Shown one piece after another: positions 21,550-22,538 of a stretch of 22,538 bases of DNA. The notes below the pieces were generated by a model. That model saw only the letters and a list, made by a program, of their open reading frames with translations. It had not been told where the DNA came from and did not search any database. This stretch comes from a virus (lineage: Duplodnaviria > Heunggongvirae > Uroviricota > Caudoviricetes). The position numbers and the translations under genes are program-made. The stretch lies in the IMG/VR virus record IMGVR_UViG_2667527827_000002; one strand, 5' to 3'. Every line of letters starts with the position of its first letter. The first letter of the stretch is position 1.

Positions 21550-21969
21550 TTACTCATCATCAATAGATGATACGCAATATTTATTTTTAAATTTAAGGTT
21601 CTTTGGCGTAACTTCATCAGAGATATCAAAACCGTCCAGAATTCTATTGAATGTAGCTTCTGGCATATCATCATGAACAGAAATCTCACCCGATCGCTGC
21701 TTTCTAACCATGTTATCCACTCGCCAAATTATAGCTTCAGCGTAAACAACATAACTTGGATGCTTGATAAAGCGATGATCACCAGAATTCAAGACGCAAG
21801 ACGGATCGTGGGGGACACCATCCTTGATACTAGAAATATTAACAACTAAAACACAATAACAATCGTTAACGGGGTAATAAACAGGATCATTACAAATCAC
21901 ATGAAGATGATTGCATGGCCCAGTTGGGGCAAGCACAGTTCCTTTCCTGTATGGCTGATAATCCGTCAT
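21550..21969 (-). CDS. Hypothetical 139-aa protein, candidate toxin/effector partner of the Panacea-domain protein
   Basis: ATG 21967-21969 overlaps the stop of the upstream Panacea-like gene (ATGA). No SD of its own, consistent with translational coupling. Cys/His-rich N-terminal half (…CNHLHVICNDPVYYPVNDCYC…). No domain recognised. Confidence 0.65.
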   Translation of the reverse strand: MTDYQPYRKGTVLAPTGPCNHLHVICNDPVYYPVNDCYCVLVVNISSIKDGVPHDPSCVLNSGDHRFIKHPSYVVYAEAIIWRVDNMVRKQRSGEISVHDDMPEATFNRILDGFDISDEVTPKNLKFKNKYCVSSIDDE

Positions 21970-22538
21970 GATAATTGCAAAGAAAATTCCTTAAGTTTCT
22001 GAGATTCTTCCATTTTGCCAATTATGCGATTAGCCTCATCCTCGCTTTTACCCTCACTGATCAGCATTTCTTTCAGGTCTATAGGCTTACGAGAATTGCC
22101 AGGATCGTGCCACTCTGGACAAACGCTTTCTAGATGCGTCATATTTGCGAGATCAAATCGGTTCATATGCCCATACCGAGAATAGATTTCATCTAAAATC
22201 CGGATATCTGCACGACTCAATTCATCAAAGACCTCGTCTGCATCCATTTCCCTCGGATCTGAACGCAACGATACATTATGCCCGTTCGTCTCTATCAAGT
22301 TGTACCAGTAGTCACCAATGCCTTCAGCCTTACCGCGAATCAAGTTCAGCGTATTCGACATGACTGGTCCAAATTTCATAGAGTAAAGGCTATCTTCGCC
22401 GATCATCCTGCCATGCTTCAAAATCGACTGGCGGTTAGACAGATAGAGCAACTTCATCAATTTCAGATATGCCATGCGCCCACCTCGCTTAAGAAGTAGG
22501 TATGCAGCCATTTGAGCTACTTTTTCTTCGCAAAACAT
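21966..22538 (-). CDS. Panacea-domain (DUF4065/GepA-like) protein, putative antitoxin; start coincides with the window edge
   Basis: 190 aa. The N-terminal pattern …VAQMAAYLLLKRGGRMAYLKLMKLLYLSNRQSIL…FGPVMSNTLNLIRG… matches DUF4065/Panacea proteins as I recall them. The ATG sits at 22536-22538, so the true start and the promoter may lie outside the window. Confidence 0.7.
   Translation of the reverse strand: MFCEEKVAQMAAYLLLKRGGRMAYLKLMKLLYLSNRQSILKHGRMIGEDSLYSMKFGPVMSNTLNLIRGKAEGIGDYWYNLIETNGHNVSLRSDPREMDADEVFDELSRADIRILDEIYSRYGHMNRFDLANMTHLESVCPEWHDPGNSRKPIDLKEMLISEGKSEDEANRIIGKMEESQKLKEFSLQLS

What the first reader, a model, noticed from the sequence alone, without database searches (positions are those of the whole stretch)
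21550..22538. Candidate undescribed toxin-antitoxin or defence module: Panacea (DUF4065)-like gene coupled to an unrecognisable 139-aa protein
The 190-aa protein has the N-terminal pattern of Panacea-domain antitoxins, which are known to pair with very diverse toxins. Its stop overlaps the start of a 139-aa Cys/His-rich protein with no recognisable toxin fold (not PIN, RelE, MazF or Fic-like by eye). The operon is AT-rich and sits between the excisionase-like gene and the presumed integrase end of the prophage, a typical accessory hotspot. The 139-aa protein may be a new toxin or effector.
Basis: partly seen in the sequence, partly recalled or inferred. Interest (0 to 1): 0.8.

Follow-up and report, generated by a model that had tools for sequence, protein, structure and literature searches.

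The report
Prophage PanA–PanT toxin-antitoxin pair
This is a two-gene toxin-antitoxin module at the end of an E. coli prophage: a Panacea-domain antitoxin coupled to a toxin with a MazF-like fold, from a toxin group published in 2022, so it is an untested member of a known kind and not a new system.

Summary
Two minus-strand ORFs of 190 aa (21966-22538) and 139 aa (21550-21969) share an ATGA stop/start overlap. The 190-aa protein is a clear Panacea/DUF4065 protein (Pfam PF13274, E 2e-19).

The best reading is a type II PanAT module with a MazF-fold toxin, carried in a variable cargo slot next to the phage attachment site. Still open are the toxin's chemistry (family-specific His21/Asp55/Cys58/His65; no evident MazF catalytic Arg), its trigger and its role. 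Interest is low to moderate.

The parts
21966..22538 (-). panA: 190-aa antitoxin. It has a Panacea domain (residues 27-137), the GPV motif (57-59), and a C-terminal tail of about 50 aa (141-190) that is conserved among PanAs paired with this toxin family.
   Evidence: Pfam PF13274, E 2.2e-19. Alignment of 25 partner PanAs. RefSeq names it 'Panacea domain-containing protein' WP_000458584.1.
21550..21969 (-). panT: 139-aa putative toxin with a MazF/Kid/CcdB-like fold. It belongs to a large family with no Pfam entry (Kurata T6 cluster). Conserved residues are H21, L22, D55, C58, G63, H65, F67, S72, Y76, G113 and S117.
21966..21969 (-). ATGA stop/start overlap, implying translational coupling of panA and panT.
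   Evidence: Sequence. The same -4 overlap occurs in 11 other loci from several orders, -1 in one, and gaps of 2-27 nt in most of the rest.
21337..21510 (-). orf57: a small conserved phage gene 39 nt downstream on the same strand. It is probably co-transcribed but is not part of the module, because it is also present in prophages that lack panAT.
   Evidence: phrog_2741. Present next to a different cargo gene in mEp460 and O157:H7 prophages.
21293..21318 (.). GC-rich hairpin with a T-run, terminator-like. It lies between the convergent xis-like gene and the panA-panT-orf57 transcription unit.
   Evidence: Terminator scan on L001 5994-6019, which corresponds to window 21293-21318. Sequence.
20981..21289 (+). 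Excisionase-like gene (PrtN family). Context only.
   Evidence: PF11112, E 4e-23; phrog_1300 excisionase.

Best explanation
The pair is a type II PanA-PanT toxin-antitoxin module carried as cargo by a dusA-integrating lambdoid prophage of E. coli.

panA and panT are probably transcribed from a phage-borne promoter. That promoter would lie in the roughly 260 bp between panA and the att core, outside the window. The two genes are translationally coupled through ATGA.

PanT is a small protein with a MazF/Kid-like fold and, when free, most likely arrests growth by blocking translation. RNA cleavage is the default expectation for this fold. PanA (a Panacea domain plus a conserved C-terminal tail) binds PanT directly and keeps it inactive. 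Loss, degradation or displacement of PanA would free PanT. Possible triggers are infection by another phage or loss of the prophage.

Shown here: domain identity, fold, gene coupling, conserved pairing, purifying selection, and location in a cargo slot.
Taken from the published T6 representative: toxicity, rescue, complex formation and translation inhibition.
Inferred: RNase chemistry, which part of PanA neutralises the toxin, the trigger, and the biological role (abortive-infection defence or prophage stabilisation).
For: PanA is Pfam Panacea at E 2.2e-19.

In 27 of 28 genome loci that encode a PanT relative, a PanA homologue ends within a few bases of its start. The upstream partners tested are Panacea by Pfam in five further loci.

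The Pantoea septica LMG 5345 and Chimaeribacter 2016-Iso4 loci reproduce the -4 and -1 overlaps listed for those strains in the T6 rows of Kurata Dataset S1. P. moraviensis PanT is in T6. In that paper it is toxic, is neutralised by PanA, is pulled down with PanA, and specifically inhibits 35S-Met incorporation.

Both genes show pN/pS of about 0.1.

The same pair sits in accessory slots of other temperate phages: YeP1 next to the integrase and Sirocco next to the portal gene. In E. coli the slot alternatively holds an unrelated 177-aa gene.
Against: Neither toxicity nor neutralisation was tested for this pair. In the 2022 screen 8 of 25 predicted PanTs were non-toxic in E. coli, including an E. 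coli pair and a Salmonella-phage pair from another cluster.

I could not obtain the P. moraviensis PanT sequence, so the link to the validated toxin rests on published cluster membership and not on my own alignment.

No family member matches the Pfam PemK/MazF profile. A forced profile alignment to MazF is not significant and puts a conserved Leu where MazF has its catalytic Arg29. RNase chemistry is therefore not established.

No PADLOC defence model matches, and there is no evidence for a defence phenotype.
Confidence: 0.72

Rival explanations
1. PanT has the MazF/CcdB fold but is not an endoribonuclease. It could poison gyrase as CcdB does. Alternatively it could use its family-specific His21/Asp55/Cys58/His65 set for a different, possibly metal-dependent or thiol-based, activity on a translation component.
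Against: The tested T6 member inhibits translation specifically, not replication. MazF-type structures score above CcdB.
Confidence: 0.15
2. The pair is not an active toxin-antitoxin system in E. coli. PanT would be non-toxic in this host, and the genes would serve some other phage function or be inert cargo.
For: 8 of 25 predicted PanTs were non-toxic in E. coli, including phage-borne pairs. The prophage in the window lacks late genes.
Against: Both genes are under strong purifying selection. They are intact in about 205 complete E. coli genomes. The pairing is conserved from Enterobacterales to Alphaproteobacteria.
Confidence: 0.1
3. SocAB-like type VI mechanism: PanA acts as a protease adaptor that delivers PanT for degradation, not as a stoichiometric inhibitor.
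For: SocA is the founding Panacea protein. Kurata et al. note that the two modes need not be exclusive.
Against: The NCBIfam SocA equivalog scores 14.4 bits against a cutoff of 190. The partner is not SocB. The T6 representative forms a stable PanA:PanT complex.
Confidence: 0.04
4. One reading: a new toxin or effector with an unrecognised fold, forming an undescribed system.
For: No sequence-profile hit in Pfam, NCBIfam, PADLOC or PDB sequences.
Against: MazF-like fold. The family is listed as PanT cluster T6 in 2022.
Confidence: 0.03

Closest known systems
PanAT systems, toxin cluster T6 (Kurata et al. 2022, PNAS, PMC8832971). The validated representative is Pseudomonas moraviensis PanA (WP_083354365.1) with PanT (WP_083201923.1).
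   Same: The PanA has no N-terminal extra domain, and its N-terminus (MFCEEKVAQ) resembles that of the P. moraviensis PanA (MIFSEQKVAQ). The gene order is antitoxin first, with a -4 or -1 overlap. The toxin is about 130-140 aa, has no CDD/Pfam hit and has a MazF/PemK-like fold. Enterobacterial T6 rows (Pantoea septica, Chimaeribacter) are 56-57% identical to this toxin.
   Different: This E. coli prophage pair was not in the part of the dataset I could search, and it has not been tested. I could not measure direct identity to the validated Pseudomonas toxin. A Pseudomonas phage homologue is 48% identical.
MazEF / Kis-Kid / PemIK type II toxin-antitoxin systems
   Different: There is no sequence-profile similarity to PemK_toxin. 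The canonical catalytic Arg is not evident. PanT has two extra C-terminal helices. The antitoxin is a Panacea protein, not an AbrB/MazE-type DNA-binding protein, and has no recognisable DNA-binding domain.
CcdAB
   Different: CcdB targets gyrase. The T6 representative blocks translation. The antitoxin is unrelated.
SocAB (type VI toxin-antitoxin system, Caulobacter)
   Same: The antitoxin carries the Panacea domain.
   Different: The SocA equivalog model is not met (14 bits against a cutoff of 190). The toxin is unrelated to SocB. A direct-binding mechanism is expected.

Membership tests
PanAT (Panacea-antitoxin toxin-antitoxin systems) | The antitoxin carries the Panacea/DUF4065 domain above the Pfam gathering score | tested here: met
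   PF13274, 70.9 bits against a cutoff of 25.7, E 2.2e-19
PanAT (Panacea-antitoxin toxin-antitoxin systems) | Conserved GPV signature motif of the Panacea domain | tested here: met
   G57-P58-V59 in KFGPVMS. G and P are invariant in 25 partner PanAs. The motif is described.
PanAT (Panacea-antitoxin toxin-antitoxin systems) | [quoted passage not shown] | tested here: met
   27 of 28 genome loci have panA directly upstream. Spacing ranges from -4 to +27 nt. The same holds in phages YeP1 and Sirocco.
PanAT (Panacea-antitoxin toxin-antitoxin systems) | The toxin inhibits growth alone and is rescued by the cognate PanA, with direct complex formation | not testable with these tools
   This needs expression assays and a pull-down.
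PanT cluster T6 (Kurata 2022) | Homology to proteins listed in T6 | tested here: met
   The loci in Pantoea septica LMG 5345 (L008) and Chimaeribacter 2016-Iso4 (L007) encode 56-57% identical proteins after PanA. Their overlaps are -4 and -1, as in the published rows.
PanT cluster T6 (Kurata 2022) | Direct similarity to the validated P. moraviensis PanT WP_083201923.1 | not tested
   The sequence could not be obtained with the tools. It was not among named hits.
MazF/PemK endoribonucleases (PF02452) | MazF/Kid/CcdB SH3-like barrel fold | tested here: met
MazF/PemK endoribonucleases (PF02452) | Match to the PemK_toxin sequence profile | tested here: not met
   No hit at E <= 1 for 23 members, or at E <= 0.01 for 118 members. 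The family profile finds no MazF among PDB sequences.
MazF/PemK endoribonucleases (PF02452) | Catalytic Arg (EcMazF R29) and Thr/Ser (T52) at equivalent positions | tested here: inconclusive
   A non-significant global hhalign places conserved L22 at R29, H21 at H28, and S47/S48 at T52/T53.
MazF/PemK endoribonucleases (PF02452) | Sequence-specific RNA cleavage | not testable with these tools
   Biochemistry is required.
SocAB type VI toxin-antitoxin system | SocA equivalog model and a SocB partner | tested here: not met
   NF047745 scores 14.4 bits against a cutoff of 190. The partner has a MazF-like fold.
Catalogued anti-phage defence systems (PADLOC 2.0) | Match to any defence-system protein model | tested here: not met
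   No hits for either protein at E <= 1.

The most novel reading that the evidence does not exclude
The T6 PanT family may be a MazF-fold protein that has replaced the canonical RNase catalytic residues with its own His21/Asp55/Cys58/His65 constellation. It would then act through a chemistry not yet described for this fold, either metal-dependent or thiol-based. In this reading the prophage-borne pair works as an abortive-infection or superinfection-exclusion system in which PanA senses an incoming phage.
Probability: 0.12. Interest if true: 0.55.

Novelty: new member of a known kind. Interest (0 to 1): 0.22.

Why it matters
About 4% of complete E. coli genomes (205 of 5426) carry this exact module at the end of a dusA prophage, and RefSeq still labels the toxin gene "hypothetical" with a start that is probably wrong. 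Assigning it to the PanAT/T6 MazF-fold group gives it a testable function.

The toxin family is large (about 2700 representatives at 50% identity), has no Pfam entry, and has no biochemically defined activity. This E. coli member would be a convenient native-host model for three questions: what T6 PanTs cleave or modify, what releases them from PanA, and whether they defend against phage or stabilise the prophage.

Tried and rejected
Sequence-profile routes to a function for the 139-aa protein all failed.
- Pfam gave only a spurious ICMT hit at E 0.05.
- NCBIfam gave spurious aminotransferase hits far below the cutoff.
- PADLOC gave nothing.
- Family profiles searched against PDB sequences gave nothing.

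A single-sequence AF2 model of PanA was useless (pLDDT 42). The AFDB50 fold library was unavailable.

I tried to find the P. moraviensis PanT sequence through a profile search and cluster look-ups. Neither returned a named Pseudomonas protein.

The accession and 'PanAT' literature search returned only irrelevant papers. Searches for later work on this E. coli pair found none.

A search for an inverted-repeat operator upstream of panA found only short, unconvincing repeats.

I rejected orf57 as a third component of the module, because it also occurs with a different cargo gene.

Full report
**What is there.** On the minus strand, a 190-aa ORF (21966-22538) and a 139-aa ORF (21550-21969) overlap by ATGA. 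The ATG of the 190-aa ORF is the last base of the window. A 57-aa ORF follows 39 nt downstream on the same strand (21337-21510). Next comes a terminator-like hairpin (about 21293-21318), shared with the convergent excisionase-like gene at 20981-21289. The module has 41.4% GC against 48.4% for the window.

**Upstream protein.** It matches Pfam PF13274 (SocA_Panacea) at E 2.2e-19 and 70.9 bits (cutoff 25.7), over residues 27-137. It carries the GPV motif that Kurata et al. call the Panacea signature. It does not meet the NCBIfam SocA equivalog (14 bits against 190). RefSeq already names it "Panacea domain-containing protein".

**Downstream protein.** It has no significant hit in Pfam, NCBIfam or PADLOC, and its only PHROG match has unknown function. 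A homology search gave 62 close relatives in Enterobacterales, Vibrio and Shewanella. An exhaustive profile search found 2714 50%-identity representatives at E <= 1e-3, of which 943 are at E <= 1e-10. No Pfam model covers the family: none of 118 diverse members hits a relevant model.

**Is the pairing real?** A scan of one genome per species found 28 loci that encode a relative. In 27 of them a PanA homologue lies immediately upstream. The 28th is a 277-bp contig. The junction is the same ATGA overlap in 11 loci from Enterobacterales, Methylococcaceae, Piscirickettsiaceae and Sutterella. It is -1 in one locus and a gap of 2-27 nt in most of the rest. Five further upstream partners tested are Panacea by Pfam. 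Both genes show pN of about 0.085 against saturated pS of about 0.8 relative to the Kosakonia and Pluralibacter orthologues. The conserved ATG at the overlap and the conserved PYRKGT N-terminus show that PGAP's 128-aa GTG start is probably wrong.

**Already described?** Kurata et al. 2022 (PMC8832971) surveyed DUF4065 neighbourhoods and defined 88 toxin clusters. Dataset S1 lists cluster T6, annotated by HHpred as "EndoA/PemK/MazF-family RNAses". T6 includes Proteus, Pluralibacter, Pantoea septica LMG 5345, "Yersiniaceae bacterium 2016Iso4" and Photorhabdus, and also Pseudomonas moraviensis.

My scan independently recovered the Pantoea septica LMG 5345 locus (L008) and the Chimaeribacter coloradensis 2016-Iso4 locus (L007). 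Their PanA/PanT overlaps, -4 and -1, are exactly those tabulated. These proteins are 56-57% identical to the window protein. The family is therefore T6.

The P. moraviensis T6 pair was validated in that paper. The toxin arrests E. coli growth, PanA rescues it, the two proteins co-purify, and the toxin specifically inhibits protein synthesis. I could not obtain that toxin's sequence for a direct alignment. A Pseudomonas phage homologue is 48% identical. The window's accessions are absent from the stored part of the dataset, and I found no paper on this E. coli pair.

**Context.** The module is 99-100% identical in phages SKA5 and Lys8385Vzw and is present in full in 205 of 5426 complete E. coli genomes. 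In the circular phage genome the integrase gene follows panA after about 450 bp. In prophages panA is the last gene before a dusA fragment. Phage and prophage sequences diverge about 262 bp upstream of the panA ATG, which places the att core there. The module's promoter must lie in that stretch, outside the window. A TTGACC-17-TAAACT candidate sits 127 bp upstream.

About 360 other genomes, and phage mEp460, share orf57 but carry an unrelated 177-aa gene in place of panAT. That gene has no Pfam or PADLOC hit. This is therefore a genuine variable cargo slot. The same pair also occupies accessory positions in Yersinia phage YeP1 (next to the integrase) and Pseudomonas phage Sirocco (next to the portal gene).

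**Mechanism.** The best-supported model is a type II module. Translationally coupled PanA binds and inactivates PanT. Free PanT blocks translation, by default through RNA cleavage as expected for the fold. PanA here has no N-terminal DNA-binding domain. It does have a C-terminal tail of about 50 aa that is conserved among T6-partner PanAs. By analogy with the C-terminal neutralising elements described by Ernits et al. 2023, the tail may occupy the toxin groove.

The chemistry is open. Across 118 diverse members only H21 is invariant, and L22, D55, C58, G63, H65, F67, S72, Y76, G113 and S117 are at least 90% conserved. A non-significant alignment to MazF places a Leu at the catalytic Arg29 position. 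A non-canonical activity on the MazF scaffold is not excluded.

**Verdict.** It is wrong about an unrecognisable fold and about the module being undescribed. This is a new, untested member of a known kind.

Noticed in passing
window 1-5714, and the junction at about 5715: The first 5.7 kb are E. coli host genes: pdxI (aldo/keto reductase) and the ydbA autotransporter. They abut a prophage DNA-methyltransferase gene (5776-6828) directly. The window has a Q-like antiterminator (8152-8538) but no lysis, head, tail or integrase genes. The prophage is therefore truncated or rearranged. In complete genomes the panAT end lies at dusA, far from ydbA.
   Followed up: partly
L032 2908-3441 (E. coli O157:H7), and mEp460_023 in L031 3908-4441: About 360 E. 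coli genomes and phage mEp460 carry an unrelated 177-aa hypothetical gene (WP_000956557.1, phrog_4350) in the slot that panAT occupies here. It has no Pfam or PADLOC hit and could be another accessory or defence candidate.
   Followed up: partly
window 21337-21510 (-): A 57-aa conserved phage ORF (phrog_2741, unknown function) lies directly downstream of panT. It is retained whichever cargo gene is present, and it shares the terminator with the xis-like gene.
   Followed up: no
window 21550-21969; RefSeq WP_014640052.1: PGAP calls the toxin gene as 128 aa from an internal GTG that has a good Shine-Dalgarno sequence. Family conservation and the ATGA junction support the 139-aa ATG start. Some records also carry a 232-aa PanA with an upstream start, which the conserved N-terminus does not support.
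   Followed up: yes
L036 1501-1863 (Pseudomonas phage Sirocco): The PanT homologue is not annotated in this phage record. A 44-aa opposite-strand CDS is annotated over part of it. The PanA gene (929-1486) is labelled hypothetical. The pair sits at the genome end next to the portal gene.
   Followed up: partly
window 7201-8400, ORF 7459-8103 (-): This is the lowest-GC stretch of the window (38.8%). It holds a 214-aa ORF with no Pfam hit (phrog_8498, unknown function) just downstream of the Q-like antiterminator, a typical moron position.
   Followed up: no
window 20396-20971 (+): The gene annotated as an exonuclease upstream of xis matches the Rv2179c-like 3'-5' exoribonuclease family at E 1e-74.
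   Followed up: no
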